Positions 5,169 through 28,250 of a stretch of 31,085 nucleotides of DNA are shown piece after piece; the first letter of the stretch is position 1; each line of letters opens with the position of its first letter. The position numbers were made by a program, and so were the translations under genes. The notes below the pieces were generated by a model. It did no database searches, had not been told where the DNA came from, and worked only from the letters and a program-made list of their open reading frames with translations. Source of the DNA: a virus (lineage: Duplodnaviria > Caudoviricetes); IMG/VR virus record IMGVR_UViG_3300037634_000677, positions 1 through 31,085 of that record; one strand, written 5' to 3'.

Positions 5169-6948
5169 CGTCGAGGGGAATGACCTCCTCGACAACTGCA
5201 CACACATTCACTGCATCGTCACCAAGGACTTAGACACCGGCAAGGTGAAGACCTTCGTTGACGGTGAGATCGGGCTGGCGATTGAGGATCTCGAGAACGC
5301 CTCGGAGATCTGGGCACACAACGGGATCAAGTACGACATCCCAGTGCTCCAGAAGCTCTGGGGTCTCCGGCCTCCTGTAGTCCGTGACACCCTCGTCACC
5401 CTCCGACTCATGCACCCCGACACGTACACCCTCGACGAGCCTCTGGTCAAGAAGCAGAAGCTCCCTCAGAACCTCATGGGATCCCACAGCCTCGCTGCGT
5501 GGGGCCACAGGATCGGTGAGCACAAGCAGGACTACAAGGGAGGCTTCGAGACCTTCAGCCAAGAGATGCTTGACTACTGCGTGCAGGACGTTGAGGTGCT
5601 CTACAAGCTGGTCAAGAAGATCGAGGCCAAGGACTACAGCCAGCAGGCCGTCGAGCTTGAGCACAAGTTCGCTGAGCTGATCTGGCTCCAGGAGCAGAAT
5701 GGTTTCGGGATCAACCTCGACAAGGCCCGCTCACTACACACCGACCTCATGGCCCGACACTCGGAGCTAGAGGATGAGTTGCAGGCTGCGTTCCCTCCGA
5801 GGATCCAAGAGATGAAGAGCCGGTACTGGGTTGCTACGGGTTACGAAGATGATCCGGAGTGCCTGTTCGACACGCTGGCGGATGCTGAGGAATGTGGCTG
5901 GGGTAGAGGAGAACTTGAACAGGGACCTCACAAGACCAAGTCCATCCCCTTCAACCCTGGGTCCCGTCAAGAGTGCGGGGATCGCCTACGACAAAAGTAC
6001 AAGTGGAAGGTCCCGGAGAAGCTCAGTGATGATGTCTTCGCGGGGCTCAAGTATCCCGAGGCTCAGCTCATCGCTGAGTACCTCATGGTCAAGAAACGAC
6101 TCGGTCAACTGTCTGATGGTAAGGCAGCGTGGCTGAAGCTAGAGAAGAACGGAGCGATACATGGAGCAGTCAACACCAACGGTGCAGTCACCGGACGATG
6201 CACGCACTCCCGGCCCAACATGGCTCAGGTTCCTAAAGCATCTGATAGGGTGCCATTTGGATCTCGATGCCGTGAGCTATTTCAACCTACACGACGCGGA
6301 TGGAAGCTCGTCGGGTGTGACGCCTCCGGACTCGAACTCCGATGCCTCGCACACTACATGGCACGCTGGGACGATGGAGCCTACGCCAAGGAAGTCCTCG
6401 AGGGTGACGTTCACACTACGAATCAAAAGGCTGCTGGCCTGGAGACCCGGGACCAAGCGAAGACGTTCATCTACGCCTTCGTGTACGGGGCAGGGGACGG
6501 GAAGCTAGGCGACATTAAGGGCAAGGGCCCTAAGGTTGGCAAGCAGCTCCGGTCCAAGTTCTTGGAGGACCTCCCGGCCCTCGATAAGTTAATCAAGGCA
6601 GTCAAGGCCAAGGTCGCCAAGACGAACACGCTGCTCGGTCTTGACGGTCGCATCCTCCACGTTCGATCAGCCCACTCAGCACTTAACACTCTGTTGCAGT
6701 CTGCTGGTGCTGTAATCATGAAGCAAGCACTCATCCACTTCTGTGAGGAGATGGACGAGAGGGAGATCCTCTACGGACTCTGTGCCAACGTGCACGACGA
6801 GTTCCAGGTGGAGGTCCCTGACCACTCAGCTTACGAGGCAGCAGCCATCGCAGAGTACTCAATACAGAAAGCCGGGGAGACCCTCGACTTTCGTTGTCCC
6901 CTAGCAGGAGAGGCCAAGGTTGGAAACAACTGGGCCGAAACACACTGA
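5149..6948 (+). CDS. gp5: DNA polymerase family A with 3'-5' exonuclease
   Basis: Exo FDVE, HNGIKYD, YCVQDV; motif A DASGLELR; motif B AKTFIYAFVYG (Tyr at the T7 Y526 position); motif C VHDE. Confidence 0.98.
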   Translation: MTRLAFDVEGNDLLDNCTHIHCIVTKDLDTGKVKTFVDGEIGLAIEDLENASEIWAHNGIKYDIPVLQKLWGLRPPVVRDTLVTLRLMHPDTYTLDEPLVKKQKLPQNLMGSHSLAAWGHRIGEHKQDYKGGFETFSQEMLDYCVQDVEVLYKLVKKIEAKDYSQQAVELEHKFAELIWLQEQNGFGINLDKARSLHTDLMARHSELEDELQAAFPPRIQEMKSRYWVATGYEDDPECLFDTLADAEECGWGRGELEQGPHKTKSIPFNPGSRQECGDRLRQKYKWKVPEKLSDDVFAGLKYPEAQLIAEYLMVKKRLGQLSDGKAAWLKLEKNGAIHGAVNTNGAVTGRCTHSRPNMAQVPKASDRVPFGSRCRELFQPTRRGWKLVGCDASGLELRCLAHYMARWDDGAYAKEVLEGDVHTTNQKAAGLETRDQAKTFIYAFVYGAGDGKLGDIKGKGPKVGKQLRSKFLEDLPALDKLIKAVKAKVAKTNTLLGLDGRILHVRSAHSALNTLLQSAGAVIMKQALIHFCEEMDEREILYGLCANVHDEFQVEVPDHSAYEAAAIAEYSIQKAGETLDFRCPLAGEAKVGNNWAETH

Positions 6949-9759: not shown

Positions 9760-11325
9760 ATGCAGACGAACATCACTGCCAAGGGGCGATACAACCAGCT
9801 CGCTTCTGAGCGGTTGAAGTTCCTTGAACGAGCCAGAGAGTGTAGCTGGTACACACTGCCCTACTTGATTCCCAAGGAAGGCACCACCAGCTCCACGGAG
9901 TTCCACACACCCTACGCAGCTCTGCCTGCCCAGTGTGTGAACAACCTAGCTGCCAAGCTCATCACAACCCTGCTCCCTCCTGGCACAGCCTTCTTTAAGC
10001 TGAACCTGGAGAGGCTCGCAGCGGAGCAGGTAGTAGAGATCCCGGCCCCAGGCGGGGAGAACCTCAAGGCGGTAACGGAGAAACAACTCCTCCGCACTGA
10101 GCTGATCGCTACCGATGAGATCGAGGGGATGTCCCTGAGGCCCAAGGCCTACGAGCTCTTCCGTCACCTCATCGTAGGGGGCAACGCTCTCCTCCTTGAG
10201 GACGGCGAGGACAGCCGTGTGCATCCTCTCTCCAACTACGTCTGCCGACGTGACGGGGTAGGCACTCCTGTCGAGATCATCGTCAAGGAGAGCACCAACT
10301 ACTGGGACCTCACCGAAGAACAGCAAGCCCAGGTCCAAGACTACGAACGTAAGGAAGAGGACCAAGGCGAGCTGGATGTCTACAAGTCCTGTACGTGGGA
10401 CTACGAAAAGAACAAGTGGGTTGTCTACCAAGAGATCAACGGCAACAAGCTCCAAGGGACCGAGGGTACTTACACCCGTGAGAACTTCCCTTACATCCCC
10501 CTCCGCTGGACTCGCCTCGACGGTGAGGACTACGGACGGAGCTATGTCGAAGAATACCTCGGGGATGTCATCTCCCTGGAGGAGCTGACCAAGTCAATCG
10601 TACAAGGGTCAGCCGTAGCATCACGAATCATCTACCTGGTCCAGCCGGGTGGTACAACGAATCCAAAGGAACTCGAGGACGCTGACAACGGTGCCTACGT
10701 GAAGGGAAGCCCGGACGAAGTCCAGGCCCTCCAGTCACAGAAGGCCCAGGATCTCCGCATTGCAGCAGAGATGGTCAGCAACATCGAGGCCTCCTTGAAG
10801 TCCGCCTTCCTCATGATGAGCTCTGTCCAACGACAGGCTGAGCGTGTGACGGCGGAAGAGATCCGACTCATGGCTCACGAGCTGGAGAATGCCCTCGGTG
10901 GTATCTACTCCCTGCTCGGCCAGGAGTTCCAGAGACCTCTGGTCCAGAGACTTCTCTCTCGCTTGAAGAAGCAGAAGAAGATCCCTGCACTCCCCGACGA
11001 ACTGGTGAACATCCAGATCATCACTGGCCTTGAGGCCCTCGGCAGGGGCCAGGACCTACAGCGACTACAGGTTGCTATCGGGTCCATCCCTCAGCCTCTT
11101 CTACCTGAGGTCCTCCCGTACCTGAATGCTACGGAGATGCTCAACCGCATCTTCGGTGCTGTGGGTGTGGACACTACAGGGCTTCTTAAGGATGCCGAAG
11201 AGGTAGCAGCCGAACGGCAGCAGGCCCAGATGCAGCAGATGGCCGAGAAGCTCGGTCCCCAAGCTATCCAACAAGCTGGTGCTATGGCACAACAGCAACA
11301 ACAACAGCAGCAACCTGAACAGTAA
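9760..11325 (+). CDS. gp8: Portal (head-tail connector) protein
   Basis: YTLPYL, VNNLAAKL, LIVGGN, GEDYGRSYVEEYLGD, RQAERVTAEEIR, LGGIYSLL, TGLEALGRGQD. Confidence 0.98.
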   Translation: MQTNITAKGRYNQLASERLKFLERARECSWYTLPYLIPKEGTTSSTEFHTPYAALPAQCVNNLAAKLITTLLPPGTAFFKLNLERLAAEQVVEIPAPGGENLKAVTEKQLLRTELIATDEIEGMSLRPKAYELFRHLIVGGNALLLEDGEDSRVHPLSNYVCRRDGVGTPVEIIVKESTNYWDLTEEQQAQVQDYERKEEDQGELDVYKSCTWDYEKNKWVVYQEINGNKLQGTEGTYTRENFPYIPLRWTRLDGEDYGRSYVEEYLGDVISLEELTKSIVQGSAVASRIIYLVQPGGTTNPKELEDADNGAYVKGSPDEVQALQSQKAQDLRIAAEMVSNIEASLKSAFLMMSSVQRQAERVTAEEIRLMAHELENALGGIYSLLGQEFQRPLVQRLLSRLKKQKKIPALPDELVNIQIITGLEALGRGQDLQRLQVAIGSIPQPLLPEVLPYLNATEMLNRIFGAVGVDTTGLLKDAEEVAAERQQAQMQQMAEKLGPQAIQQAGAMAQQQQQQQQPEQ

Positions 11326-14198: not shown

Positions 14199-14828
14199 AT
14201 GGCAGACGAAACCGTAGCTATCACAGCACGAACATCACTGGAGGCCATGAACTCCATCCTGGCCTTGGTGGGGAACTCGCCTGCCACGGACTACAACTCT
14301 ACCTCGGACCTCGATGTCATCCTGGTACGCCAGGTGATCGAAGAGACTTCTCTTGAGGTCCAAGAGGACTCGTGGCAATTCAACCGCGAGCTAGAGATCG
14401 AACTGACCCCCAACGGATCCGATGAGGTAGTACTCTCTGAGGCGTTCACCGCTACAGGCTACACACCCTCAGAGATCGCACGCATCGACTTCATTGCGAA
14501 GAAGAACTGCGGCAAGGACATCATCATCCGAGGGGGCAAGGCGTATGACAGGGTAGACCACACCTACGAGTTCACCAGCTCCATCTACGCTGACGTTGTC
14601 TGGTACCTCCCCTGGCTGGATATACCCAATGACCTCCGGTACTACATCACTGTCCGTGCTGCACGTAAGTTCGCGGCTCGACGTATCGGCTCCGACCTGA
14701 TCGACGCCATGCTGCGTGAGCAGGAAGGCGTGGCCTACACCAGAGCCCGTGGTGCTGAGATGGACCGGGGAGACTACAACGCCCTGAAGAATAACCCGGT
14801 ACTCCGGAGGAGCCGTCGATGGCGTTAG
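14199..14828 (+). CDS. gp11: Tail tubular protein A (adaptor)
   Basis: LEAMNSILALVGNSP, VQEDSWQFNRE, RGGKAYD...HTYEF, YITVRAARKF. Confidence 0.95.
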   Translation: MADETVAITARTSLEAMNSILALVGNSPATDYNSTSDLDVILVRQVIEETSLEVQEDSWQFNRELEIELTPNGSDEVVLSEAFTATGYTPSEIARIDFIAKKNCGKDIIIRGGKAYDRVDHTYEFTSSIYADVVWYLPWLDIPNDLRYYITVRAARKFAARRIGSDLIDAMLREQEGVAYTRARGAEMDRGDYNALKNNPVLRRSRRWR

Positions 14829-17803
14829 TCACCTACACGATCCCCAACCTTATCAACGGGATCTCCCAGCAGGCCCCGCAGCTCCGTCGTAAGACCCAGG
14901 CTGCACTGATGGACAATGGCTGGGCATCCGTCGTAGATGGCCTACAGAAGCGGCCTCCTATCGAGAACGTAGCCAAGGTGCTCACCAGCACTGACTACTC
15001 GGAGTCCCACGTACACGCTATGAACCGGGACGTGACTGAGCGTTACGTCGCTGTGTTCGGGCCCACGGAGATCACGGTCTTCGGGGTCGATGGGTCCCTC
15101 TATCAAGTGGAGACCCCGGACGGCGTGGGATACTTGCCGGCAAGTCCTTCCTCGCAGATGCGATGCGTCACCTTCGATGACTACACGTTCGTAGTCAACA
15201 CTGAGATGACCATGGCTATGTCGGGGACTACGCCTACCGCACCGAACTCCCAAGGCTTCGTTGAGGTCCGAGCAGCCAACTATGAGATGGACTACACGCT
15301 CACAGTCACAGACGCTGACGGTGCCTACGCGGTAACCCTGACCACTGGTGGTGGGCCTCCCTACAACACGACTGACCAGATCGCTGGGGACCTCGCATCC
15401 TCGACAACCCTAGATCCTATCACGGACTTCGAGGACCCAACTCGAGCCGCCACAGTAGACGGGTCAACCCCCGGGACTGCTGCGGCTGATGCAGGTCTCC
15501 AGGACCTCCTCACTGCGGAGGCCACGGATACCTACGTGGTCACCCGAGACGGCAACGTGATCCACATCGAGAACACCTCTGGGAACGACTTCCAGATTGA
15601 TGTCAAGGACGGCAACGCTGACGCTGCAATGTTGGCGTCTAAGGACTCCGTGGAGTTCTTCACTGAGCTCCCCACGCGAGCTGTCCACGATGTCTCTATT
15701 GAGGTCACCTCGACCCCCGAGGGCGGTGACGCCTACTGGGTGAAGTTCGAGAGACCCGACGCTGCCTCAGGCATCGGCGAGGGCCAGTGGATCGAGTCCG
15801 TTGACCCTAGTATCGACAATGCCTTTGACCCATCTACGATGCCCCATGTATTGGTCAGGCGTTTCGATGATGGATCGGGCACGATCACCGGGACCCCCAA
15901 CGCTGCCTACTTCAGCTTTGAGGAGTGGACCTGGTCTGACCGAGGCACCGGGGACGCAGACAGCAACCCTGAGCCTAGCCTCATCGGGGCTAAGGCACGG
16001 GACATCTTCTTCTTCCGCGACAGACTCGGCATCCTGACAGCTTCGGACATCGTATTGTCCGAGTCAGGGTTCTATGAGAACTTCTTCCGCACTACCGTCA
16101 CGGTCCTCGTGGACTCCGATGTCCTCGACCTGGCTATCAGTGACAACCAAGCTGCGGAGCTCTACTGGGCGGTGCCTGATGAGCAGGACCTGATCCTGTT
16201 CTCTGACCAGACCCAGTACATCCTAGAGAGTAACGGACCCCTGACCCCTGGGTCTGCCTCCATCCGGGCCACGACTCGCTTTGAGTCTAACCGGCGTGCG
16301 AGGCCCCAGCTCATCGGGGACCGTGTGATCTTCGGGCAGGAGAACGGCAGCTATGTCGGGCTCCGTGAGTATCGCCTAGATGCTAACACCCAGAAGCGTA
16401 CTGCTGAAGAGATCACCGGCCATGTGGATCAGTACATTGAGGGGGACCTCAAGGACATGACAGCCTCGGCACAGCAACGTGCCTTGGTAGTGGCTACGTC
16501 AGGTAGTCAGTACGTCTACCTGTACCAGTGGTTTGACCAGGGACCCCAACGCCTACAGGCCGCGTGGTCTCGGTGGGACCTCGGGGTAGGGGACTACCTC
16601 CTGGGGCTCAGGTTCATTGACACTAGTCTGTACTTCGTTTCCCAACGGGGCGACGGAGTCTACCTCGAGAAGATCGAGACGGACCCGGGTAGGCAGGACT
16701 ATGACAGCGGGGTGGTTATCCACCTTGACCGTCGAGTGGATCTCAATGATGTCCCGAGGATCTATGACCCCGTGGCTGACGAGACCACGATCACTCTGCC
16801 CTATCCCTGTGATGATGTTCCTCTCATTGTCCCGGCTTCCAATGAATGCCCGGACTCCTGTGGGGACCCAGACTTCGCGGGGACGTACTACGGGATCGAG
16901 AGATGTACGGATGGCGTTGAGCCTCCTGTGTATGTCCAGGATGATGAGTTTAATCTCAACGATGTCTTCCTTAGGAACGGCGTCTGTTACAAGGTAGTCA
17001 CCACTACTGAGACGGATCCTCCGCTTACCTCGGTGCTTCGTGTTGCAGATGTCACTAGCTCTGCGGACTGTGCGACCTGTACGAGTACCTGGCAGGACCC
17101 CGATGTCATGGCACCTCCTATGGCTGGTACGAGCTTCCTCCGGATGGCTCGGTGTGAAGATGACTCCATGGGTGAGTACTCGATCACTGAGCAGATCATG
17201 GGCTTCCCCGCTGGGGATGACCTGACGAAGATCTACGAGCTTAATGATGTCTGTTACTACGTCACGAATGTCAGAGAGACCGCTCCTAGTGATCCTCTGT
17301 TCCCTGTGATGATGGCGACGGCCCACGACACCTGTATTGATTGCATCGCCCCTTGTACTAACTGCTCGAACGACCCCAGCGACTTAGTAGCCAGCGGCCT
17401 CATTGATAACGATGTGGGGAATATCTGTACTAGCGCGAACACGACTTTTACCTTCATCGACAAGGACACTACCCCTACGAGGTGTGTCTGGAACTGGCGG
17501 TATTATGACGCTGTTAACGCGAGAACACATGAGGTGTGGCTCTACTATGCTTTAGACTCCATAACCGTTAGTACAGCCGGTAACTGCCCTGGTATACCTC
17601 TGGTAAAAGGGGAGTGGCTCATTAAAGCTGAGTTAGATTACCCAATCAGCAACGGAGTGGATTATGTGGAGAAAACTACTGGATTCTCGTGTAACACTAC
17701 GACTGGGAAGATCAGTGGATCTCACGAGGCCCTCCCCGCATGTAACGCGGGCGGCAAGTGCGATGATAGTATAACTGGTCCAACCTTCACGGTGGCCCCG
17801 TGA
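14819..17803 (+). CDS. gp12: Tail tubular protein B (nozzle): N-terminal ~660 aa fused to a Cys-rich ~330-aa extension
   Basis: IPNLINGISQQ, GLQKRPP, TMPHVLVR, NPEPS, FFRDRLG, QAAWSRW, HLDRR; after TTITLPY the sequence becomes Cys-rich and the normal gp12 C-terminus is absent. Confidence 0.93.
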   Translation: MALVTYTIPNLINGISQQAPQLRRKTQAALMDNGWASVVDGLQKRPPIENVAKVLTSTDYSESHVHAMNRDVTERYVAVFGPTEITVFGVDGSLYQVETPDGVGYLPASPSSQMRCVTFDDYTFVVNTEMTMAMSGTTPTAPNSQGFVEVRAANYEMDYTLTVTDADGAYAVTLTTGGGPPYNTTDQIAGDLASSTTLDPITDFEDPTRAATVDGSTPGTAAADAGLQDLLTAEATDTYVVTRDGNVIHIENTSGNDFQIDVKDGNADAAMLASKDSVEFFTELPTRAVHDVSIEVTSTPEGGDAYWVKFERPDAASGIGEGQWIESVDPSIDNAFDPSTMPHVLVRRFDDGSGTITGTPNAAYFSFEEWTWSDRGTGDADSNPEPSLIGAKARDIFFFRDRLGILTASDIVLSESGFYENFFRTTVTVLVDSDVLDLAISDNQAAELYWAVPDEQDLILFSDQTQYILESNGPLTPGSASIRATTRFESNRRARPQLIGDRVIFGQENGSYVGLREYRLDANTQKRTAEEITGHVDQYIEGDLKDMTASAQQRALVVATSGSQYVYLYQWFDQGPQRLQAAWSRWDLGVGDYLLGLRFIDTSLYFVSQRGDGVYLEKIETDPGRQDYDSGVVIHLDRRVDLNDVPRIYDPVADETTITLPYPCDDVPLIVPASNECPDSCGDPDFAGTYYGIERCTDGVEPPVYVQDDEFNLNDVFLRNGVCYKVVTTTETDPPLTSVLRVADVTSSADCATCTSTWQDPDVMAPPMAGTSFLRMARCEDDSMGEYSITEQIMGFPAGDDLTKIYELNDVCYYVTNVRETAPSDPLFPVMMATAHDTCIDCIAPCTNCSNDPSDLVASGLIDNDVGNICTSANTTFTFIDKDTTPTRCVWNWRYYDAVNARTHEVWLYYALDSITVSTAGNCPGIPLVKGEWLIKAELDYPISNGVDYVEKTTGFSCNTTTGKISGSHEALPACNAGGKCDDSITGPTFTVAP
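16886..17344 (+). repeat. Two diverged tandem protein repeats of ~65-70 aa in the gp12 extension
   Basis: ERCTD...NGVCYKV...ETDP...DCATC and ARCED...NDVCYYV...ETAP...TCIDC. Confidence 0.7.
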
Positions 17804-18057
17804 TCCGGGAGATCAACACCTCCGGGCAGTACGGCAAGAAGCCTGACGCCCCCGCGACCTCACCAGAACGCATACGCATAGCAGAACTCCGAGCATCCAT
17901 CTGCTCCACCTGCGAGTACGCCGAGAAGGTGACACCTCCAAAGAAGATAGCAAGTAGGTTCACGGTCTCCAACGTCCGCTGTAAGAAGTGCGGATGCTCC
18001 GGAGCCAACCTACTAAGAGAATCATCCCCATGCCCAATCGGGCGACATCCTGAATAA
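17800..18057 (+). CDS. Small Cys-rich putative metal-binding protein (DUF6171-like pattern)
   Basis: GTGA overlap; R..ICSTC...RCKKCGC...CPIG. Confidence 0.75.
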   Translation: MIREINTSGQYGKKPDAPATSPERIRIAELRASICSTCEYAEKVTPPKKIASRFTVSNVRCKKCGCSGANLLRESSPCPIGRHPE

Positions 18058-18066
18058 AACCTAAAC

Positions 18067-18105
18067 GACCCCAGAGACCTAAAAGCCTCTCGGGGTCTAT
18101 TCATT
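18067..18105 (+). terminator. Hairpin (weak terminator or processing site) between the insert and the gp12 C-terminal gene
   Basis: GACCCC(A)GAGA...TCTCGGGGTC followed by TATTCATT; U-tract is poor. Confidence 0.45.
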
Positions 18106-18120
18106 ACCCAAAGGAATCCC

Positions 18121-18600
18121 ATGAGCGACCTAACACACTCACCCGGGCAGTCGGTCCCCGTGGACTCCTGCACTGACACTGACATCGTAGTGACCGGCAA
18201 CTGGACCAACCTCCCCGCATTCGCTGGGACCCAGTACTGCTTCCGCTACCGTCTGAGTCCCCAGTACCTCAACACTGAGAGCGGGGGAGTCAGGACTCTC
18301 CTCAACGATGGGCGACTACAGCTCCGCAGCTTCGTGCTGTCCTTTACGAACACTCAGTACTTCAAGGTGGAAGTGACGCCCAACACGTCAGGCACCATGT
18401 ACGAGTACACGATTGGTGATGACGACCTAACCCTCGACTCTGAGACTCTCAACATCCAAGACGGTGACATTGATGTCCCAGTGATGGCCGAGGGCAACGA
18501 GGTGAGGATTGACCTGGTCAACTGTTCACCCTTCCCATCGAACTTCTTAACTGGCAGCTTCAAGGCTGAGTACGCACCTAAGGCCCGGAGGATCGGATGA
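18121..18600 (+). CDS. Tail tubular protein B C-terminal domain encoded as a separate gene
   Basis: GNW...G..Y.F.Y.LS, GRLQLR, VPVMA...V.I...SPFP.N......EY..KARRI match the gp12 C-terminus; own AAGGA RBS at 18111-18115. Confidence 0.9.
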   Translation: MSDLTHSPGQSVPVDSCTDTDIVVTGNWTNLPAFAGTQYCFRYRLSPQYLNTESGGVRTLLNDGRLQLRSFVLSFTNTQYFKVEVTPNTSGTMYEYTIGDDDLTLDSETLNIQDGDIDVPVMAEGNEVRIDLVNCSPFPSNFLTGSFKAEYAPKARRIG

Positions 18601-19735: not shown

Positions 19736-22089
19736 TGAGCCAGTACCAACGTAACTACCTGGCTGATTCCATAGGGATCAATCCTACCGTTCGTCCTATT
19801 GACACCTTCGTCCAGGCTGCACAGGCAGGCGTGGCGGGTGCTCCGATTGGCCCTAACCCAGCGACACAGATCGCTGCGGCATTGGGGCAGGCTAACCAGG
19901 CCCTAGAGCAATACTACTTCCAGCCTGCCCATCAAAAGATGCTAAGGCAGCAGGAGGTGGATGCTCAGACCTACAAAGACCAGTACGAAAACATGCAGGC
20001 GTTCTCTGACGCAGTCAAGAGAGGGGACATCGAGCACGGGGATAACCCGTATCTCCAGGTGCTCACCAAGGAGTTGTTCGCCAAGGAGGAAGCCAACGAG
20101 GTGAGCATCCGCATCGCGGAGCTTACTGATAGACAAGACATCCTCGGGGCTGAAGATCCCATTGCAGCCTTTAACGAGGCTGTGCAGGAGATCCATACTG
20201 AAGTCCTCGGGGACAACTCGGATCCTTACTTCCGGCAGGCGTTTAGTCGCCACTCGGCACCTATGATCGCCCGAGGTGCCAACCAGTTCGCTCAGGGTCT
20301 TCGACGGTTTAACGTCGAGGAGGCCGAACGAGCGTTCCAATCCAACCTGGGCACCGAGCTAGAAAAGGTGTTTGGTGAACTAGAGACAGGCGATGTGCTC
20401 ACGCAAGAGGGCCTATCGCAGAGTATATCTGATGCCCTCGGGTCCCTGAGGGAATCCAACCTAATCCCCGCACATCGCATAAATGAGATGGCTGCCGGGG
20501 CTCTCCTAGCTAAGGCTGAGGAATACTCCACAACTGATGGCCTCGCGGCTGAGAGTGTTCTAAAGGCTCTGGAGAGTATGAAGAACAAGGACGGAGCCTA
20601 CATCTCTAATATCCCTCAGATCAGCCTGAGGATCGCAAAGCTCCGAGATAAGATTGATACAGAGAGGGAGCGAAGAGACGATAAGGACTATACAGCAAGG
20701 AAGCGGGCTCAAGACGAGGCGTTAGACGTTGCTGTAGGTTTTGTCGCTGAGTTAGATAGGACCCTGACGGGACCTGAGGTCCGGGAGATCCTAGAGAAAG
20801 AGCACCCAGGTATTACCAACAGGGCTGTCGAAGCTCTGGTCAAGGATCATGTATCCGGACAGAGGGCTGACAAGGCCTACGGGGATGCTTCCTTAGGGAA
20901 AGCCGTAGACTTAGAGATCAACGATCTTTTCGATCTCTACGACACCGCCGTCACCCCTGAGGAGCGGCAACTTCGGTTGACTCAGATATTGGACTTCAAG
21001 AACGAGACCGATCTCAGTGTGTCGCAGCACCGACGGATGTCAGACTTCATCTACGTCACAACCAACGCTGAGGCTAAAAAAGCCGGTAGGACCTTGACCC
21101 CGTTTGTGGCCTTAGAGTCCGCCGCAGTCCTCCAGGCTTATACGGTGGAGAGTGAAACGGAGATTGGTAAGTTTGCTCTCAAACCTGACGGCAAAGCCAT
21201 TAAGTCGATGATCGATGTCTACGCGACCAACGCCCTGGCAGAGCGTATGCGTGACAGAGAGCTAGGCCCTCCGACTCAGGAGGAACTCCAAGAGATTGCA
21301 CGCAACTCTGTGGCACAGGCTGAAGAGTTTGTTAAGGCTCAGAAGGAGTCCGGAGGACTGGGACTCTCCCCAGAAGTCGAGGAGATCCCTGTCTCACCTT
21401 TTGAGGTCGGACGACAGGAAGGCACCGACAAAGCATCCGAGACATATCGAAACATCCAGAAGTTAGAACAGGACAAGGCGTCGGCTACCACTCTGGCTGA
21501 ACGTGAGAGGATCCAGAAGAACATAGACAGTCAGACCCGCTTAGAGGAGAAACAAGTCCGGGACATGCAGATAGCGGTGGCCCAGCATCTCCAAGTGGGG
21601 TTCAAATCTGGCTGGGATGGCACGGCAGTTGGAGGCTTTGTGTCCATGGGATCCAGAGAGGAAGCCCAGAAGAACCTGGTGATTGTCTCGACGACCCGTG
21701 ACGGGGGTCCCCAATTTGCACGCCGCATTCTCTCTGAATACCACGAGGTCTCTCAGAAGCATCCAGACCTCTACCCTCCGAATGGAGTGGTGGACCCGCT
21801 GGTTGTTCAGTTGGTGGAGAGTCCAGGGACGTGGGCTCACATTGTAGGAGAGTTCCAGGAGATCCTAAAGGATCCGGAGTCCATCACCCGTACTCAGGGT
21901 AGATACAACACGCCTGAGCGGGACCCCAACAACATCCTTTGGTTACTCCACCAGGCGAACCCTGGATGGGGCTTAGGGGCATTTGATGCGGACGGTAAGT
22001 CCACTTCGGAGATGTTCAAGTCCATTGAAGTTGCACAGGTTCGATTAGCTACCCGGGCTCCCCAGCCCGTGAATAAGGAAAATAAATGA
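19735..22089 (+). CDS. gp15: Internal virion protein, gp15-like
   Basis: 784 aa, helical, located between the gp14-like and gp16-like genes; assignment mainly by synteny. Confidence 0.75.
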   Translation: MSQYQRNYLADSIGINPTVRPIDTFVQAAQAGVAGAPIGPNPATQIAAALGQANQALEQYYFQPAHQKMLRQQEVDAQTYKDQYENMQAFSDAVKRGDIEHGDNPYLQVLTKELFAKEEANEVSIRIAELTDRQDILGAEDPIAAFNEAVQEIHTEVLGDNSDPYFRQAFSRHSAPMIARGANQFAQGLRRFNVEEAERAFQSNLGTELEKVFGELETGDVLTQEGLSQSISDALGSLRESNLIPAHRINEMAAGALLAKAEEYSTTDGLAAESVLKALESMKNKDGAYISNIPQISLRIAKLRDKIDTERERRDDKDYTARKRAQDEALDVAVGFVAELDRTLTGPEVREILEKEHPGITNRAVEALVKDHVSGQRADKAYGDASLGKAVDLEINDLFDLYDTAVTPEERQLRLTQILDFKNETDLSVSQHRRMSDFIYVTTNAEAKKAGRTLTPFVALESAAVLQAYTVESETEIGKFALKPDGKAIKSMIDVYATNALAERMRDRELGPPTQEELQEIARNSVAQAEEFVKAQKESGGLGLSPEVEEIPVSPFEVGRQEGTDKASETYRNIQKLEQDKASATTLAERERIQKNIDSQTRLEEKQVRDMQIAVAQHLQVGFKSGWDGTAVGGFVSMGSREEAQKNLVIVSTTRDGGPQFARRILSEYHEVSQKHPDLYPPNGVVDPLVVQLVESPGTWAHIVGEFQEILKDPESITRTQGRYNTPERDPNNILWLLHQANPGWGLGAFDADGKSTSEMFKSIEVAQVRLATRAPQPVNKENK

Positions 22090-25000
22090 CCTATCAAATC
22101 CCCGAGGAGCAGTTAGCCGCTGCGTCAAATCCTCTACCACAGGGGACTCCTCGGTATCAACCAGCGGATGTAGACCACGGGCTACTCGACTACGCCAAGG
22201 ACTTCGGTCGGGGCGTTCTCCGGGGCGGCGTGGGCTTCGGAGAGTCTCTAGTAGAACTAGGGGACTCCACTGCCGAGCTCTTCGGAGGCGACCTCTTCGA
22301 GGGTAACGACCTCACTTGGAAGGAAGACCTTCTGGGCGAGAACGAGACCTGGGTGGGGACCCTCTCTGAGGGGATTACCCAGTTCGCTATCGGGTTTATC
22401 CCTGTGGCGGGCGTGACCTCGAAGATTGGTAAGGCTGCTCAGTTTGGCAAGGCAGGCCAGTACATTACCACGGCTCTCGGTGCCGGTGCTGTTGCTGACT
22501 TCGTGGCCTTCAACGGTCACGAGGGACGGTTGTCGGACTTAATCGAACAGTACCCCTCCCTACAGAACCCCATCTCCGGTTGGCTCGCTTCTAAAGAAGA
22601 TGACTCCGAGTGGGAAGGGCGGTTCAAGAACGCCTTGGAAGGCCTCGCCTTAGGTCCTATCGCTGACGTAGCTCTTGGGGGAGTTAAGCTCCTCGTGGGG
22701 GCTAAGAAGGCCCAGGCCAAAGGCGGGGACAAGGCTGGCGAGGACTACATCAAGAAGCACGCCCCAGCCTTACTCGGAGCCATCGAGGACCCCCTGACCT
22801 TCAAAGAAGCTCGGGGGCAACTTCTAGGATTAGGAATGCCTAAGAAGGAAGTTGACGCTTCGATGGCAATCATCCAGGAGACTGCTAAGAGCCTCGGACT
22901 TAAGCCTGACGAGTATGTCGGGATCACGATGAAACGTATCGAACGAGGCGTGGTCAAAGACCCCGACGCTCTCCAGCAGATGGCTGTAGAAGCATTCGAG
23001 GGTGAGGTCCCTGTATCGGTGGGGCCTAAAGAGAACATCTTCGACTTCGCCAAGAATCTGAATGACCACCTCATCTCTACCTACGGGACCCGGGACATCA
23101 AGCCCGGTACAGCTCAGTGGGAAGAGGCTAAAGGATGGGCTGCGGATGAAGTCCGTAAGCAGCTCCAGTCAGGACGAGACGGCACCGAATGGTACCAGAA
23201 GTCCATCGATAACCAGTTTCATTATTTATCCTACAAACATCCAGAGCTGGCCGAGAATGGGCCTGACCGTGTGCTATTTAGTACCTTCCTGTCTCTCACT
23301 TCCCCTGGTCGTATGCCTGACGCGAATATGAAGACGGCAGAGGCTTGGTATCGGATCTACAAAGAGACGGGGTCGATCCCAGAGAAGAACCCCTACACAG
23401 GGAACAACTGGGACACTGTCGGACCTACAGGGCGAGTCGAAGCTGGTAACGAGTTTCTCAGGGTCTTTAATTCCTTCGGGAATCCTGAAGATGCTCAGAA
23501 GTTCCTCTTCACTCCCCTGCCTTACGAGACTATGCTCAAGGAATGGGCGTTCCGGTCTGGTAAGGATGTAGCTAAACTACATGGCAAACGTGGATCTGAG
23601 ATTGCCCACTACCTCGAGGGCCTCGAAAAGATCACTGACGGATCCAACGTGAGCCGTAAGAACGTGAGACACAGCGACGAGGTTCCTCCTATCTTGATGA
23701 TCGGTCCTAAGGTAGGACCCTTCAATCTGAACCAAGCGGGATTCCACCAGTACCTGACAGCAGATAAGTGGTACTCCCGCTCTTTCCGTCGCTACTTCGG
23801 GAAGCTGTTTGATGAGCGTCCGAACGCCCAGATCGCTAAAGATGCTTCCGTCCGTCTATCCCGGCTGATCTCAGCAGGGAAGATTGGCAAGGAAGATCTC
23901 TCCGCGACTCTGTCAGCCCTCGGCGTCAAACGAGGCAATAAGCTAACTAAGGCCGCTGAGAAGGAACTTAAGAAGCAGTACGAGGAGTACTTGGAAAACG
24001 GAGCCTCAGGGAATGATAGTCTCGATAAAGTGTTCAACAAGGTCAAGGCGACCTTCACTGACATCGAGACGCCTTCCTCCAACCTCGAGCGAGGCTATAT
24101 GGCCCGCTTCGCAGCGGAGGTTTCCGAAGAACTTGGGATGACCGTTAGTGCATTCCAAGCAAACTTATGGTACTTTGAACAAACATTATGGGCCAAGGCC
24201 GGTACAGGTCGAGGCGTAACAGGAGACTTTGAAGATGCAGCAAGAAGCCTCATCGAAGCAGGCGGATACAGGCCAGATGTCCCAGGAACAGCTTCTAGCG
24301 AAGGTGTCAGAAATGATGCTGGAGGGAACCCTCAAGTCTCCCGAGGAGATGGAAGCGGCACTCAACAAGGTGGCTCGGCGGCTGCGGATGGAGGAGCAGG
24401 GACCGGACGAGGGCGAGGATCTGACCAACGAGGATCAACTCATCCTGGCTCGGAATCTGGCTCGGTCACGAAGGCAGCAGACCGGCTCGCAACCCGAGCA
24501 GCAAGGGTCAACCGAATCGGGGACGAAGCCCTCGAGTATGCCCAGCAATCTGGAATAGAGCCCCTGCCTCTCACCCGCTATGCGGATGTAGACCAGGAAC
24601 GTGCGGAGCGAATCGCTGAGGCCTATGAGAACATGAAGCACGCCCCGGAAGACCCGGAGGTTAAAGCTGCTTATGATGCTCTGGCTAGAGAGACCATCGC
24701 TCAGTATGAGTTCTTGAAATCTAAGGGTTATAAGTTCGAGTGGACTACAGAGCCCTCGACGTACGCTGACCATAAGATTCTCTTGGACGAGCTAGATAAA
24801 GGAAAGCCCATGAGGGTGTTCCTTTCCGAGGGAGGCTTTGGAGAGGACGCTGGGAAGTATCCCGGCCACCCTCTACTGGCACCTAGTGGCATTGTAGAGG
24901 ATGGTAAGGAGCTCCTGGTCAATGACCTGTTCCGTGCTGTTCACGATTACTTCGGCCACGGTAAGCCTGGGTCCTCCTTTGGAGCCCGGGGCGAAGAGAA

Positions 25001-28000
25001 CGCCTGGCGTGCTCATAGTGTCATGTTCTCCCCAGAAGCCCGGAAAGCCTTGACAACCGAGACACGGGGCCAGAACTCGTGGGTCAACTACGGGCCTAAG
25101 GCACAAGATAACCAAGCGGCTATTAAAGCTGGGAGGGTTAGCGAGGACTTCACCTTCGCAGATCAGAAAGCTGGTCTACTCCCCGATGAGTTCCGCCAGC
25201 TTGACGAGGAAGTCAACCCTGACCTCCTTAAACAGGCCGACGGTGAAGTCACCCAAGGGGAGATCAAGTTTGAAGAGGATGGCCGAGCGGTCATCCGTAT
25301 ATTCAAAGAAGGCAACGTGTCTACTGTTGTGCACGAGTTTGCTCACCTGTACAGACGCAACCTCGAACGGCTGTCACCTGGGACACTCTCGGAGGCCAAC
25401 AAGGTCTTCGGAGTCGTTGATGGTAACTGGACGCGAGCAGACGACGAGAAGTTCGCCCGTGCCTTTGAACAATACCTGGCAGACGGTAAGGCCCCTACTG
25501 AGGGTATGAAGAGTCTGTTCAGTAAGTTCAAGGAGTGGATGGGTAAGATCTATGATGGGGCAGCTAAGAGTGCCCTCGGTGATGACATCTCTCCCGAGAT
25601 GCGTGACTTCTTCGACCGGATGCTCGGTAAACCAACCCGTGAACAGCGGGTCGTCAAGACCACTGCCAAGATCCGATCTAAGATTGCTGCTCGCATCTCC
25701 GACGAGCTTGCTAAGCAGCCTGTGGACCGTGGGGACTTCAGTGATCCCGCAGCCCTCATGATGGATGCTGTGGACGGTATTGACTTCAACCTGGACAAGG
25801 TCCTCACGGACATGGAGTCCAAGGATGTCTTCAACATCTTCTCCGAAGAGCTCGAGAAGCAATTCAAGAAACTCAACGGCGGGGTGGAGTCTCTCCAGAG
25901 GACCACTGAAAAGGCCTACAAGGTTCTGTCCGAGGACCTAGGGGTTCCTGAGAATGAACTCAAGAACAGCTACCGAGACCTTAGCAACAACATGGACAAC
26001 CTTGCGGCTCGTCTCCTTGCAGGGAAGATGATCCTCAAGACCCAGGCCGAGGCCGTGGCTGAGATGGGCCTGAAGATTGACCTCGGTGATGCCGGTCCAC
26101 GCCAGCTCGCTGAGTTCAACCTGATGATTGAAGAGATGGCAGAGATGCAGGGTCTCCTCAAGAACATTCAGACCCAAGCAGCCCGGGCTACCTCGGCGGG
26201 TCGTATCGAGGTTACCTCCTCCCTGACCCGACAACAACTCGAAGAGTGGGTTGATAAGGCAGGCGGCTCCAAGCGTATCCATGACGTAGCGAAACAAGTC
26301 ACCCTCGCTGGTGACGACTTCCGTAAGATCCGTCAGATCACTGAGAGTCGATGGGATAAGAGAGCCCGTAGGTGGTTTAACATCCACAACGAGGGCTGGA
26401 TCAACGCGATCCTATCGGGTCCTGTCACCCATGTGGTGAACATGCTGTCTACAGCAGCTCACGGGGTCGTCAGGCCTCTAGAGAAGACCATCGGTGGGGC
26501 GGCTACCCTCAACGGTAAGGTTGCACGGGAAGGGGTCGATGAGATCATTGGCCTCGCCTACAACCTTACCCAGACCTTGGGCGTCTACCGTATGACTCTC
26601 AAGGCGGCTAAGGAAGGGAACACCATCCTTGACCCAGGTAATACTACCTATGACGCGGTCCAAGGAGCCATCGCCAACAAGCACTCCACCCACGACTTCA
26701 ATGAAGCGTTCTTCAAGCAACCCCTTGGGGCCTTGAAGGGGGAGGTCAGCTTCGGCCAGGCTGCGTTGGACTTCGTAGGTAATGGTGTGCGTCTCCCTGG
26801 TCGTCTCCTGACGGCGGGTGACGAGTTCAACAAGCAGTTGTTCTATCGCTCCAACCTGTTCGCCAAGGGCCTAGCAGAAGCTCGGTCCCGGGGCCTCAGC
26901 TCCGCAACAGAAAGGGCCAACTATGCCATTAAATACATTGACTCTCGCATCAGCGAGGGCGGTCGGGCCACTGACATGGACTCTCTGTACTACAGTCAAG
27001 AGAGCACGTTCACTAACCCCTTGGATTATGGGCTAGGTAAGACTCTACAAGGGGCCGCGAACAGGCACCCCTACCTGCGTCCTATCCTGCCCTTTGTCCG
27101 CACCCCCACTAACATTGTGCGTCAGCTCTGGCGACACACCCCGGGACTAGGCTTCATCCAGAAGCAGCTCCGGGAGGACCTGAAGAGTGGGGACCCTCGG
27201 CGGAAGTCTCTGGCTATCGGGCAGCAGGTGGTAGGTTCCACTCTCTTCCTTACGGGATTCATGGCAGCAGCAAGCGGTAAGATCACTGGTGGGGGTCCCT
27301 CGGACTCCAAGCGACGTGCTCTACTCCGTCAGACTGGCTGGCAACCCTACTCCATCGTCACCACCGACGAGAACGGTAAGAAGGTCTACACCTCCTACCA
27401 GCGTATGGACCCCTGGGCCTCGGCCCTCGGACTCATGGCGGACGTCCATGACGTCAGTCGCAACGCAGATCCTGGGGACGCCAGTGACCTTGTCCAGGGT
27501 ACTATGGTTGCCTTGGCTAAGAACGTGACCAACAAGACCTACCTCCGAGGTGTGTCTGAAGCTCTCGGGGCCATAATGGACCCTGAACGTAACATGAAGC
27601 ACTGGTGGCGTCAGCAGATTGGAAGCTACGTGCCGAACTTCGCTAATCAATTCAATCCAGATGACACTCTACGTGAAGTGCGTAGCGTGCTGGATGCAGT
27701 GAAGAAGCGTACCCCTTGGTTCTCGGAGACCTTGGACCCTAAGAGGAACACCTTCGGGGAGCCCATCCTTTATGGAGGTGCTCTCGGAGAGGAGCTAGGG
27801 GTTGGAGCCTTGTCTCCCTTCTACCGCTCTAAGGGTCTAGACTCCCCCATCCGACAGGAGATGGTGGACCTGAACATGCCAATGTCCTTCCGGAAGTCGA
27901 TGGTCCAGCCGGGCCTCGACCTGGCTCAGTTCCGGCTGTCCCCTAACCAGTCTGCCCATGACCGCTGGCAGGAAATGGTCGGGGAGATCGAGGTGAACGG

Positions 28001-28250
28001 TAAGGGCCTGGAAGAGGTTCTGAACGGTATGATTAAGAGCGAGGCCTATCAGCGTCTGCCTATGGTTCCTATGGACGACTCGGGTATCAAGTCCCCTCGT
28101 GCATCAGCAATCAAGAAGGTGATAAACTCCTACAGAGAAGCTGCTCTAGTTCGCCTTCTCCGGGAGAACCCGGAGCTGAAGGAAATGTACCATGCAGCAG
28201 CTATAAATGCTAGACGAGTGAAGGTACTCGGGGCTCAAGCAGCCCAGTAA
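22086..28250 (+). CDS. gp16: Large internal virion (ejection) protein, gp16-like, polyvalent with inserted domains
   Basis: 2054 aa; C-terminal NAILSGPVTH, DEFNKQ, PFVRTPTNI, GWQPYS, YQRMDP motifs of gp16-like proteins; internal HDYFGH and HEFAH motifs. Confidence 0.88.
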   Translation: MTYQIPEEQLAAASNPLPQGTPRYQPADVDHGLLDYAKDFGRGVLRGGVGFGESLVELGDSTAELFGGDLFEGNDLTWKEDLLGENETWVGTLSEGITQFAIGFIPVAGVTSKIGKAAQFGKAGQYITTALGAGAVADFVAFNGHEGRLSDLIEQYPSLQNPISGWLASKEDDSEWEGRFKNALEGLALGPIADVALGGVKLLVGAKKAQAKGGDKAGEDYIKKHAPALLGAIEDPLTFKEARGQLLGLGMPKKEVDASMAIIQETAKSLGLKPDEYVGITMKRIERGVVKDPDALQQMAVEAFEGEVPVSVGPKENIFDFAKNLNDHLISTYGTRDIKPGTAQWEEAKGWAADEVRKQLQSGRDGTEWYQKSIDNQFHYLSYKHPELAENGPDRVLFSTFLSLTSPGRMPDANMKTAEAWYRIYKETGSIPEKNPYTGNNWDTVGPTGRVEAGNEFLRVFNSFGNPEDAQKFLFTPLPYETMLKEWAFRSGKDVAKLHGKRGSEIAHYLEGLEKITDGSNVSRKNVRHSDEVPPILMIGPKVGPFNLNQAGFHQYLTADKWYSRSFRRYFGKLFDERPNAQIAKDASVRLSRLISAGKIGKEDLSATLSALGVKRGNKLTKAAEKELKKQYEEYLENGASGNDSLDKVFNKVKATFTDIETPSSNLERGYMARFAAEVSEELGMTVSAFQANLWYFEQTLWAKAGTGRGVTGDFEDAARSLIEAGGYRPDVPGTASSEGVRNDAGGNPQVSRGDGSGTQQGGSAAADGGAGTGRGRGSDQRGSTHPGSESGSVTKAADRLATRAARVNRIGDEALEYAQQSGIEPLPLTRYADVDQERAERIAEAYENMKHAPEDPEVKAAYDALARETIAQYEFLKSKGYKFEWTTEPSTYADHKILLDELDKGKPMRVFLSEGGFGEDAGKYPGHPLLAPSGIVEDGKELLVNDLFRAVHDYFGHGKPGSSFGARGEENAWRAHSVMFSPEARKALTTETRGQNSWVNYGPKAQDNQAAIKAGRVSEDFTFADQKAGLLPDEFRQLDEEVNPDLLKQADGEVTQGEIKFEEDGRAVIRIFKEGNVSTVVHEFAHLYRRNLERLSPGTLSEANKVFGVVDGNWTRADDEKFARAFEQYLADGKAPTEGMKSLFSKFKEWMGKIYDGAAKSALGDDISPEMRDFFDRMLGKPTREQRVVKTTAKIRSKIAARISDELAKQPVDRGDFSDPAALMMDAVDGIDFNLDKVLTDMESKDVFNIFSEELEKQFKKLNGGVESLQRTTEKAYKVLSEDLGVPENELKNSYRDLSNNMDNLAARLLAGKMILKTQAEAVAEMGLKIDLGDAGPRQLAEFNLMIEEMAEMQGLLKNIQTQAARATSAGRIEVTSSLTRQQLEEWVDKAGGSKRIHDVAKQVTLAGDDFRKIRQITESRWDKRARRWFNIHNEGWINAILSGPVTHVVNMLSTAAHGVVRPLEKTIGGAATLNGKVAREGVDEIIGLAYNLTQTLGVYRMTLKAAKEGNTILDPGNTTYDAVQGAIANKHSTHDFNEAFFKQPLGALKGEVSFGQAALDFVGNGVRLPGRLLTAGDEFNKQLFYRSNLFAKGLAEARSRGLSSATERANYAIKYIDSRISEGGRATDMDSLYYSQESTFTNPLDYGLGKTLQGAANRHPYLRPILPFVRTPTNIVRQLWRHTPGLGFIQKQLREDLKSGDPRRKSLAIGQQVVGSTLFLTGFMAAASGKITGGGPSDSKRRALLRQTGWQPYSIVTTDENGKKVYTSYQRMDPWASALGLMADVHDVSRNADPGDASDLVQGTMVALAKNVTNKTYLRGVSEALGAIMDPERNMKHWWRQQIGSYVPNFANQFNPDDTLREVRSVLDAVKKRTPWFSETLDPKRNTFGEPILYGGALGEELGVGALSPFYRSKGLDSPIRQEMVDLNMPMSFRKSMVQPGLDLAQFRLSPNQSAHDRWQEMVGEIEVNGKGLEEVLNGMIKSEAYQRLPMVPMDDSGIKSPRASAIKKVINSYREAALVRLLRENPELKEMYHAAAINARRVKVLGAQAAQ
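24235..24558 (+). CDS. Candidate overprinted gene nested in the +1 frame of the gp16-like gene
   Basis: AGGAG at 24221-24225, 9 nt before ATG 24235 (alternative ATG 24277). Phage-preferred codons in this frame while the host frame reads as G/S/R low-complexity linker. Confidence 0.6.
   Translation: MQQEASSKQADTGQMSQEQLLAKVSEMMLEGTLKSPEEMEAALNKVARRLRMEEQGPDEGEDLTNEDQLILARNLARSRRQQTGSQPEQQGSTESGTKPSSMPSNLE

What the first reader, a model, noticed from the sequence alone, without database searches (positions are those of the whole stretch)
24221..24558. Hidden overprinted gene inside the ejection protein, directly after an enzyme-like cargo domain: candidate injected effector with nested antidote
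Seen: in the gp16 frame, about 24270-24480 reads as a low-complexity linker (GGSAAADGGAGTGRGRGSDQRG) with codons unusual for this phage (GGA, CGA, AGA). The +1 frame over the same bases uses the phage's preferred codons (CTC AAG, GAG GAG, CTC AAC AAG, CTG ACC AAC GAG, CTC ATC CTG). It encodes a plausible amphipathic helical protein (MSQEQLLAKVSEMMLEGTLKSPEEMEAALNKVARRLRMEE...LTNEDQLILARNLAR) and has AGGAG 9 nt before ATG 24235. Known: polymorphic toxin domains, including phage MuF toxins, are typically followed by a small immunity gene. Inference: an effector plus its inhibitor were captured in-frame into gp16. The inhibitor is still translated from its own RBS, protecting the producing cell, while the effector alone would be injected into the next host.
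Basis: partly seen in the sequence, partly recalled or inferred. Interest (0 to 1): 0.88.

Follow-up and report, generated by a model that had tools for sequence, protein, structure and literature searches.

The report
Hidden partner gene inside ejection protein

Summary
The nested gene is very probably real; the 'antidote' role is plausible but untested. In a T7-like marine phage, the 2054-codon gp16 gene holds a +1-frame ORF (24235-24558, AGGAG 9 nt upstream). Codon usage flips to that frame only here, and other assemblies are identical. The upstream cargo has a predicted HhH-glycosylase fold with an invariant Lys/Asp pair. All 37 clusters of one homolog set, and 40 of 42 of another, have a +1 ORF in this slot. 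Substitutions mostly favour the small gene over the linker, and one subfamily fixes GGAG and ATG in the same register. The small gene occurs separate, overlapping or embedded. Limits: this window's peptide matches those families only marginally (p about 0.02); no close homolog DNA, expression or toxicity data exist. It is not a MuF toxin. This scan has reported nested genes in giant virion genes before, on other DNA (8 notes); my paper searches found none in print.

The parts
22086..28250 (+). gp16-like internal virion (ejection) protein, 2054 aa, with inserted cargo domains
   Evidence: ORF; phrog_6651 internal virion protein at aa 1350-2039, E 7e-67; tblastn hits annotated 'internal virion protein D' in Roseobacter and Pelagibacter phages; follows the gp13- and gp14-like genes and a 784-aa gene in the gp15 position
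23031..24269 (+). Cargo 1: DUF7178-related domain with a predicted HhH DNA-glycosylase fold (approximate bounds, gp16 aa 316-728)
   Evidence: AlphaFold2 pLDDT 82; VIA top hit Tm1821 8-oxoG glycosylase, Z 11.8, rmsd 4.3, 195 aligned; 18 of the top 20 rows are DNA glycosylases; DUF7178 in 23 of 67 aligned homologs but not in the window copy itself
23709..23765 (+). Invariant Lys542 (GPK) and Asp560 (TADKW), 18 residues apart; putative catalytic pair
   Evidence: 67 of 67 and 43 of 43 aligned sequences; Endo III Lys120/Asp138 have the same spacing (PMC5924532, passages); residue-level structural equivalence is inferred, not shown
24221..24225 (+). Shine-Dalgarno-like AGGAG
   Evidence: sequence; -7.4 kcal/mol against an anti-SD, rank 5 of 52 +1 ATGs in gp16; GGAG and ATG fixed in the same register in 12 of 12 clusters of one subfamily
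24235..24558 (+). Nested +1-frame gene, 107 aa (alternative start ATG 24277, 93 aa)
   Evidence: the same 107-aa product is held as a called protein from a 711-bp contig (P0163)
24277..24480 (+). Three-helix core of the nested protein (68 aa); the gp16 frame here is a G/S/A/R/D-rich linker
   Evidence: single-sequence AlphaFold2: helices 3-16, 22-40, 51-67, pLDDT 73, pTM 0.44; codon score by segment
24552..25160 (+). Cargo 2: HDxFGH...GEENAW domain of unknown activity (zincin-like motif, recalled resemblance)
   Evidence: phrog_3170, E 8e-18; no Pfam hit and no PDB sequence hit; absent from the closest relative P0002, which has another domain in this slot
25218..25625 (+). HExxH (VVHEFAH) metallopeptidase-like domain, candidate processing protease
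   Evidence: motif at 25326-25346; phrog_9880, E 6e-19; no Pfam hit at E<0.01

Best explanation
The +1 frame at 24235-24558 is likely a real, separately translated small helical gene that travels with the cargo domains of the gp16 ejection protein and would most likely bind and restrain them while new virions are assembled. Shown: an open frame with an RBS, a codon-usage flip, and in homologs a conserved slot, selection on the +1 frame and modules that match the flanking domains. Inferred history: cargo cassettes (enzyme domain plus small partner gene) were inserted into gp16 with the giant frame reading through the partner's DNA, which became a floppy linker. Inferred mechanism: late in infection the partner is made from its own RBS on the same mRNA. 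It would hold the HhH-glycosylase-like domain (and perhaps the HDxFGH domain) inactive next to replicating phage DNA. gp16 would then be packaged and ejected, and its cargo freed, perhaps by the HExxH protease, to act on DNA in the next host. My odds: real gene about 0.9; physical partner of a flanking cargo about 0.55; specifically an inhibitor about 0.4.
For: Codon flip unique in the window. Set A: 37 of 37 clusters (36 without the window) have a stop-free +1 stretch of 50 or more codons in the slot, against 8 of 37 for +2 and 3-24 of 37 at control positions. Set B: 0 stops in 840 +1 codons at +20 to +39; +1 ATG-led ORF in 40 of 42 clusters against 3-11 of 42 in control windows. Selection: +1 amino-acid identity exceeds host-frame identity in 6 of 6 groups of set B (for example, differences by host codon position 0.37/0.23/0.17 against 0.16/0.08/0.54 in the domain) and in 8 of 13 overlapping groups of set A. 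TCG-GAG...TCA-GAT-GGA fixed in 12 of 12 clusters, against 1 of 74 single-codon invariant columns in the domain. Separate form L162 scores 14.4 bits, 0 of 1000 shuffles, against an embedded-only profile. Module matches next domain: FGF-ending module in 17 of 19 before a GNAT-like motif and 0 of 41 elsewhere; LRRL module in 11 of 11 before HDxFGH and 4 of 49 elsewhere. A further family upstream of HDxFGH occurs in 21 of 55 clusters and 0 of 55 in three control frames. Enzyme-like fold with invariant Lys/Asp. [quoted passage not shown]
Against: The window's own peptide is not a clear member of any family. The profiles did not single it out among six-frame segments of the window. Shuffle tests gave 24, 25, 858, 251 and 333 of 1000 and 43 of 2000. 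All conservation and selection evidence comes from loci only about 22-31% identical in the domain; no DNA was obtained for the 70%-identical relative P0002. In set A, 4 of 13 groups favour the host frame and 1 ties. GAT is not enriched at the start-forming Asp across set B (23:16 against 117:84). Only 1 of 4 terminal cases matches the profile clearly (27, 76, 0 and 140 of 1000). 34 of 55 HDxFGH clusters lack the tested motif, and several have no long +1 ORF, so that domain does not always need a partner. The module regexes were written after seeing the sequences. Co-segregation also follows from simple linkage. Many module-A peptides are only about 20-35 aa, short for an immunity protein. Toxicity of the cargo is unshown, and phage HhH-fold proteins can be base-modifying enzymes (PMC8989533, passages; PUGT at Z 6.6).
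Confidence: 0.5

Rival explanations
1. The nested protein is a real partner but acts as a chaperone or assembly adaptor. It helps the neighbouring cargo domains fold, stay ejection-competent or be packaged, rather than blocking a toxic activity.
For: Domain-specific co-segregation fits any partner. Partners also precede GNAT-like and HDxFGH domains whose toxicity is unknown. Rz1 within Rz is a precedent for an embedded gene that encodes a co-working subunit (PMC6139136, passages).
Against: Terminal, short host proteins keep the small gene directly downstream (L162, L118, L164, L098), the usual toxin-immunity order.
Confidence: 0.2
2. The small gene is real but functionally independent, for example a late anti-defence or regulatory peptide. 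It hitchhikes in recombining cassettes and tracks the flanking domains only by linkage.
For: Several unrelated peptide families occupy such linkers. The window peptide has no significant family match. Earlier scan notes describe stand-alone small phage genes nested in giant genes (unchecked).
Against: The same slot after the HhH domain is filled in 37 of 37 and 40 of 42 clusters across very different host proteins and downstream domains. A free hitchhiker should be lost or swapped more often.
Confidence: 0.2
3. The +1 frame is not an independent gene here. It is either a relic of a captured gene no longer translated, or an alternative C-terminus reached by a ribosomal +1 frameshift from gp16.
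For: No expression data. The RBS is not exceptional. In several homologs the +1 frame is open from inside the domain's last helix.
Against: The +1 codon bias is as strong as in ordinary genes, which argues against decay. SD and ATG codons are fixed in register in one subfamily. A fully separate copy with its own RBS exists (L162).
Confidence: 0.07
4. Chance open frame under a low-complexity linker, or a double frameshift error in the assembly.
For: +1 frames are often open under real genes (3-24 of 37 at control positions).
Against: Identical sequence in other assemblies; score about 5 sd above background; conserved slot and selection in homologs.
Confidence: 0.03

Closest known systems
Phage polyvalent proteins (Iyer et al. 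2017, PMC5512222; passages read)
   Same: A giant virion-context protein that strings together disparate enzyme-like domains with a zincin-like HExxH domain proposed to process them.
   Different: The passages returned for 'nested', 'overlap' (0 occurrences), 'reading frame', 'immunity' and 'glycosylase' (0 occurrences) describe no out-of-frame partner genes and no glycosylase cargo. Its supplements were not read. The scaffold here is a T7-type gp16.
MuF and other polymorphic toxin-immunity pairs (Jamet et al. 2017, PMC5576092; passages read)
   Same: An enzyme domain in a virion protein followed by a small ORF; swappable cargo (P0002 has a different second domain).
   Different: No MuF domain, not next to the portal gene, cargo internal rather than C-terminal. 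The small gene is embedded out of frame, and partners can lie upstream of their domain. Toxicity and immunity are untested.
Lambda Rz/Rz1 embedded spanins (PMC6139136; passages read)
   Same: A small gene in the +1 frame of a larger phage gene whose products may work together; embedded, overlapped and separated architectures all occur.
   Different: Spanins are membrane lysis proteins. That paper found no family mixing embedded with overlapped or separated members, whereas here a separate copy matches an embedded-only profile (L162).
HhH DNA glycosylase superfamily (Tm1821 OGG, Endo III, MutY) and phage aGPT-Pplase/PUGT
   Same: Predicted fold and an invariant Lys/Asp pair at Endo III spacing.
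   Different: About 10-13% identity, large helical insertions, no Pfam HhH-GPD match, carried in an ejection protein; substrate unknown.

Membership tests
MuF polymorphic toxin | MuF domain at the N-terminus | tested here: not met
   No Pfam family on the 2054-aa protein; PHROG hits are internal virion protein and unknowns
MuF polymorphic toxin | Gene in the packaging module next to portal or terminase | tested here: not met
   Portal is at 9760-11325; this gene lies at the gp16 position, 22086-28250
MuF polymorphic toxin | Toxin domain at the C-terminus | tested here: not met
   Cargo at aa 316-728 of 2054. In some relatives the same domain is terminal
Polymorphic toxin-immunity pair | Small ORF immediately after the enzyme domain | tested here: met
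   Window, 37 of 37 clusters and 40 of 42 clusters, in nested form
Polymorphic toxin-immunity pair | Domain is toxic and the small protein neutralises it | not testable with these tools
   Needs expression tests
Phage polyvalent protein | Several disparate enzyme-like domains in one polypeptide | tested here: met
   HhH-fold domain, HDxFGH domain and HExxH domain; homologs carry ART-PolyVal and LPD families
Phage polyvalent protein | Zincin-like MPTase domain | tested here: inconclusive
   HEFAH motif and phrog_9880 match, but no Pfam MPTase hit
Phage polyvalent protein | Encoded among virion genes | tested here: met
   After capsid, tube, nozzle, gp13 and gp14 genes; matches internal virion protein D
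HhH DNA glycosylase superfamily | Two-lobed HhH glycosylase fold | tested here: met
   VIA Z 11.8, rmsd 4.3, 195 aligned to 3n0u; 18 of the top 20 rows are glycosylases. Caveats: predicted model, helical (the tool warns that Z under about 13 can be generic), and Foldseek found no PDB hit at E<=0.001
HhH DNA glycosylase superfamily | Catalytic Lys and Asp after the HhH motif | tested here: inconclusive
   Invariant K and D 18 apart, as in Endo III K120/D138; residue-level superposition not obtained
HhH DNA glycosylase superfamily | Base excision activity | not testable with these tools
   Needs an assay
Embedded (nested) same-strand gene | Own start and RBS, open frame, selection on the nested frame | tested here: met
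   for the window; selection and fixed RBS/ATG shown only in distant homologs
Embedded (nested) same-strand gene | Demonstrated translation | not testable with these tools
   Needs ribosome profiling or proteomics

The most novel reading that the evidence does not exclude
Giant phage ejection proteins are arrays of effector-immunity cassettes in which each injected enzyme domain carries its own inhibitor gene hidden in the +1 frame of the adjoining linker. Here that is a virion-delivered HhH glycosylase/AP-lyase that attacks host or competitor DNA, with a fused two-part antidote that silences both neighbouring cargo domains in the producing cell.
Probability: 0.3. Interest if true: 0.92.

Novelty: new variant of a known kind. 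Interest (0 to 1): 0.74.

Why it matters
Standard annotation discards ORFs inside longer genes, so a whole layer of small genes in the linkers of phage virion proteins is missed. The domain-to-peptide pairing gives a direct way to predict which injected domains are harmful to a cell, and supplies candidate natural inhibitors, including of an HhH-glycosylase-fold enzyme. It also gives a natural series (separate, overlapping, embedded) for how nested genes arise by read-through, and explains why these linkers are rich in G, A, R, D and Q.

Tried and rejected
Co-folding the cargo domain with the 68-aa core gave 'no answer' (ipSAE 0.00 in two runs, partner pLDDT under 50); this is no evidence either way. 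The run search listed no RNA holder. Close-relative DNA was not found: single-protein scan of viral contigs, gp16-pair scan of viral contigs and of metagenomes (only the same phage). Reads laid showed no variants, so dN/dS on the window's own ORF could not be computed. No stand-alone homolog of 227-723 aa by the word-index search, although the HMMER search found 1381 relatives. The nested peptide had no Pfam, PHROG or Atlas hit and only itself in the protein search. Foldseek against PDB and sequence searches of PDB gave nothing useful. No Rfam match; promoter and terminator scans were at chance level. Assembly error and chance were rejected. By eye, helix 1 resembles the post-HhH peptides and helix 2 the pre-HDxFGH peptides, but profile scores were only marginal, so family membership is not claimed. 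Rows dropped before counts: set A, 84 sequences, 78 anchored, 74 long enough, 37 clusters; set B, 80 loci, 42 clusters; HDxFGH set, 80 loci plus the window, 65 anchored, 56 clusters. Each scan kept only the best 80 of 306, 295 and 572 confirmed stretches. The middle's output was cut; counts come.

Full report
Setting. The window is a 31-kb, about 77% complete virus record of a T7-like phage: RNA polymerase, primase/helicase, DNA polymerase, portal, capsid, tube, nozzle, gp13 and gp14 homologs. Runs holding it are marine metagenomes.

The observation. AGGAG lies at 24221-24225 and ATG at 24235, and the +1 frame is open for 107 codons. Over 24277-24480 the +1 frame has the phage's codon habits (CAI 0.69, GC3 0.72) and the gp16 frame does not (0.62, 0.35; A3 0.38 against 0.12 in training genes). 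The 68-codon score difference is +0.34, against -0.67 +/- 0.19 and a best of -0.02 elsewhere among 1326 windows. The last 25 codons overlap the next gp16 domain and favour gp16. GGA and CGA are not rare codons here, and the RBS ranks only 5th of 52 +1 ATGs in gp16. Another assembly is identical over gp16 (0 of 6165). Contigs from further runs show no mismatch or gap across the region; these may be one campaign, and X6 may be the source. A gene caller produced this same 107-aa product on a 711-bp contig. A single-sequence model of the 68-aa core gives three helices (pLDDT 73).

The upstream cargo. It has 1381 relatives at E<=0.001, mostly inside giant phage proteins, and 23 of 67 aligned members hit DUF7178. 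Its model (pLDDT 82) found no PDB match by Foldseek. VIA-align ranked Tm1821 8-oxoguanine glycosylase first (Z 11.8, rmsd 4.3, 195 aligned), and 18 of the top 20 rows are DNA glycosylases. Lys542 and Asp560 are invariant and 18 apart, like the catalytic Lys120/Asp138 of Endo III (PMC5924532, passages). That they are the equivalent residues is inferred. Phage proteins of this fold can also be base-modifying enzymes (PMC8989533, passages), so 'toxin' is not implied. The downstream domain (HDxFGH...GEENAW, phrog_3170) has no Pfam or PDB match. The closest relative, P0002, has another domain in that slot, so cargo is swappable.

The slot is conserved. Three GenBank phages, including Limnohabitans phage DC33, have an AGGAG(G)-led +1 ATG just after the domain's last helix. 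In set A (best 80 of 306 stretches; 37 clusters including the window and those three), 37 of 37 have a stop-free +1 stretch of at least 50 codons across the slot, against 8 of 37 in +2 and 3-24 of 37 at control positions. In set B (best 80 of 295; 42 clusters), there are 0 stops in 840 +1 codons at +20 to +39. There, 40 of 42 have an ATG-led +1 ORF, against 3-11 of 42 in control windows.

Selection acts mostly on the small gene. Inside the domain, differences pile up at host third positions. In the slot that excess disappears or shifts to host first positions, which are the +1 frame's third positions. +1 identity exceeds host identity in 6 of 6 groups of set B and 8 of 13 overlapping groups of set A; 4 favour the host frame and 1 ties. 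In one subfamily of 12 clusters the codons that create GGAG and the ATG are fixed in 12 of 12, at the same Asp codon as the window's ATG 24235, while only 1 of 74 invariant domain columns uses a single codon. Across all of set B that Asp is not GAT-enriched (23:16 against 117:84), so starts vary.

Three architectures, modular peptides. Where the host ORF ends right after the domain, the small gene overlaps or follows the stop (L098, L118, L162, L164). L162's copy has its own RBS and start past the stop and matches an embedded-only profile (14.4 bits, 0 of 1000 shuffles); the other three are weak (27, 76 and 140 of 1000). C-terminal modules follow the next domain: an FGF-ending module in 17 of 19 clusters before a GNAT-like motif and 0 of 41 otherwise; an LRRL module in 11 of 11 before HDxFGH and 4 of 49 otherwise (patterns written after inspection). 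In L009, L040, L125, L099 and L114 the two modules are separate tandem ORFs; in L006 and L081 they are fused. A scan on the HDxFGH domain (best 80 of 572) showed another upstream family in 21 of 55 clusters, 0 of 55 in three control frames, with first-position-biased differences in the four close loci compared. The other 34 lack that motif.

The window's own peptide. By eye, helix 1 resembles post-HhH peptides and helix 2 the pre-HDxFGH family, and L242 shows the same fused layout between the same two domains. Statistically this is marginal: 24-25 of 1000 shuffles for two profiles, not significant for three others, 43 of 2000 for the pre-HDxFGH family. No profile singled it out among six-frame segments. 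I therefore claim positional, not proven sequence, homology.

Mechanism. Most likely, enzyme-plus-partner cassettes entered gp16 with the giant frame reading through the partner gene, so the linker is the by-product frame. The partner would be translated from its own RBS late in infection and would bind and restrain the neighbouring cargo until gp16 is packaged and ejected. Reality of the gene (about 0.9) rests on the calls above; binding (about 0.55) and inhibition (about 0.4) are inferred from gene order, co-segregation and the toxin-immunity precedent. Chaperone/adaptor and independent-hitchhiker readings remain open at about 0.2 each.

Comparison and novelty. It fits polyvalent proteins (PMC5512222, passages; supplements not read), is not a MuF toxin (PMC5576092, passages), and shares only its architecture with Rz/Rz1 (PMC6139136, passages). 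The preprint 10.1101/2025.10.29.685425 (passages) covers host antiviral HhH glycosylases, not virion cargo. Searches for nested genes in such proteins, DUF7178 and HhH glycosylases in polyvalent proteins found no description; for I saw listings and abstract starts only, apart from the papers named. The library lacks most subscription papers. This scan has noted nested small genes in giant virion genes in other genomes (8 notes, unchecked); none was returned for this domain. What this case adds is an enzyme assignment for the cargo, domain-specific pairing on both sides, and a separate-to-embedded series. Verdict: new variant of a known kind, interest 0.74.

Noticed in passing
window 14819-18600: The nozzle gene is split: profile positions 1-623 lie in ORF 14819-17803, followed by a roughly 330-aa Cys-rich extension without Pfam hit. 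Then come an 85-aa Cys-rich ORF (17800-18057) and an inverted repeat near 18066-18096, and nozzle positions 652-794 lie in a separate ORF, 18121-18600.
   Followed up: partly
L002:7109 onward, L030, L031, L059, L079 and others: A conserved nested +1 module, DP[IL]..AM..HP.LT.E.AE..A..FGF-stop, sits before a GNAT-like domain in 17 of 19 clusters.
   Followed up: partly
L166-L242, about 50-110 codons upstream of the HDxFGH domain: A nested +1 family, P.R.DF...EEFEEA.G.W, in 21 of 55 clusters, with selection on the +1 frame in four close loci.
   Followed up: partly
L001:7727-8086, L003:7742-8035, L003:8039, L002:7958: Further nested +1 ORFs after other cargo domains of the same giant genes; L001 and L003 share WLG.GIVM.GPK. 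Cultured Limnohabitans phage DC33 carries at least two.
   Followed up: no
window 24552-25160: A widespread phage domain with HDxFGH and GEENAW motifs (about 1100 stretches estimated in IMG/VR) has no Pfam or PDB match; its fold was not predicted.
   Followed up: partly
window 6161-6508: A 115-codon +1 ORF inside the DNA polymerase gene has the highest +1 codon score outside the finding (-0.02) and GGAG upstream; its peptide looks unstructured and it is probably chance.
   Followed up: partly
L121-L148: Roughly 600-690-aa phage proteins that end about 97 residues after the HhH domain; the low-complexity tail exists over a nested roughly 55-70-aa gene that stops just before the host stop.
   Followed up: partly
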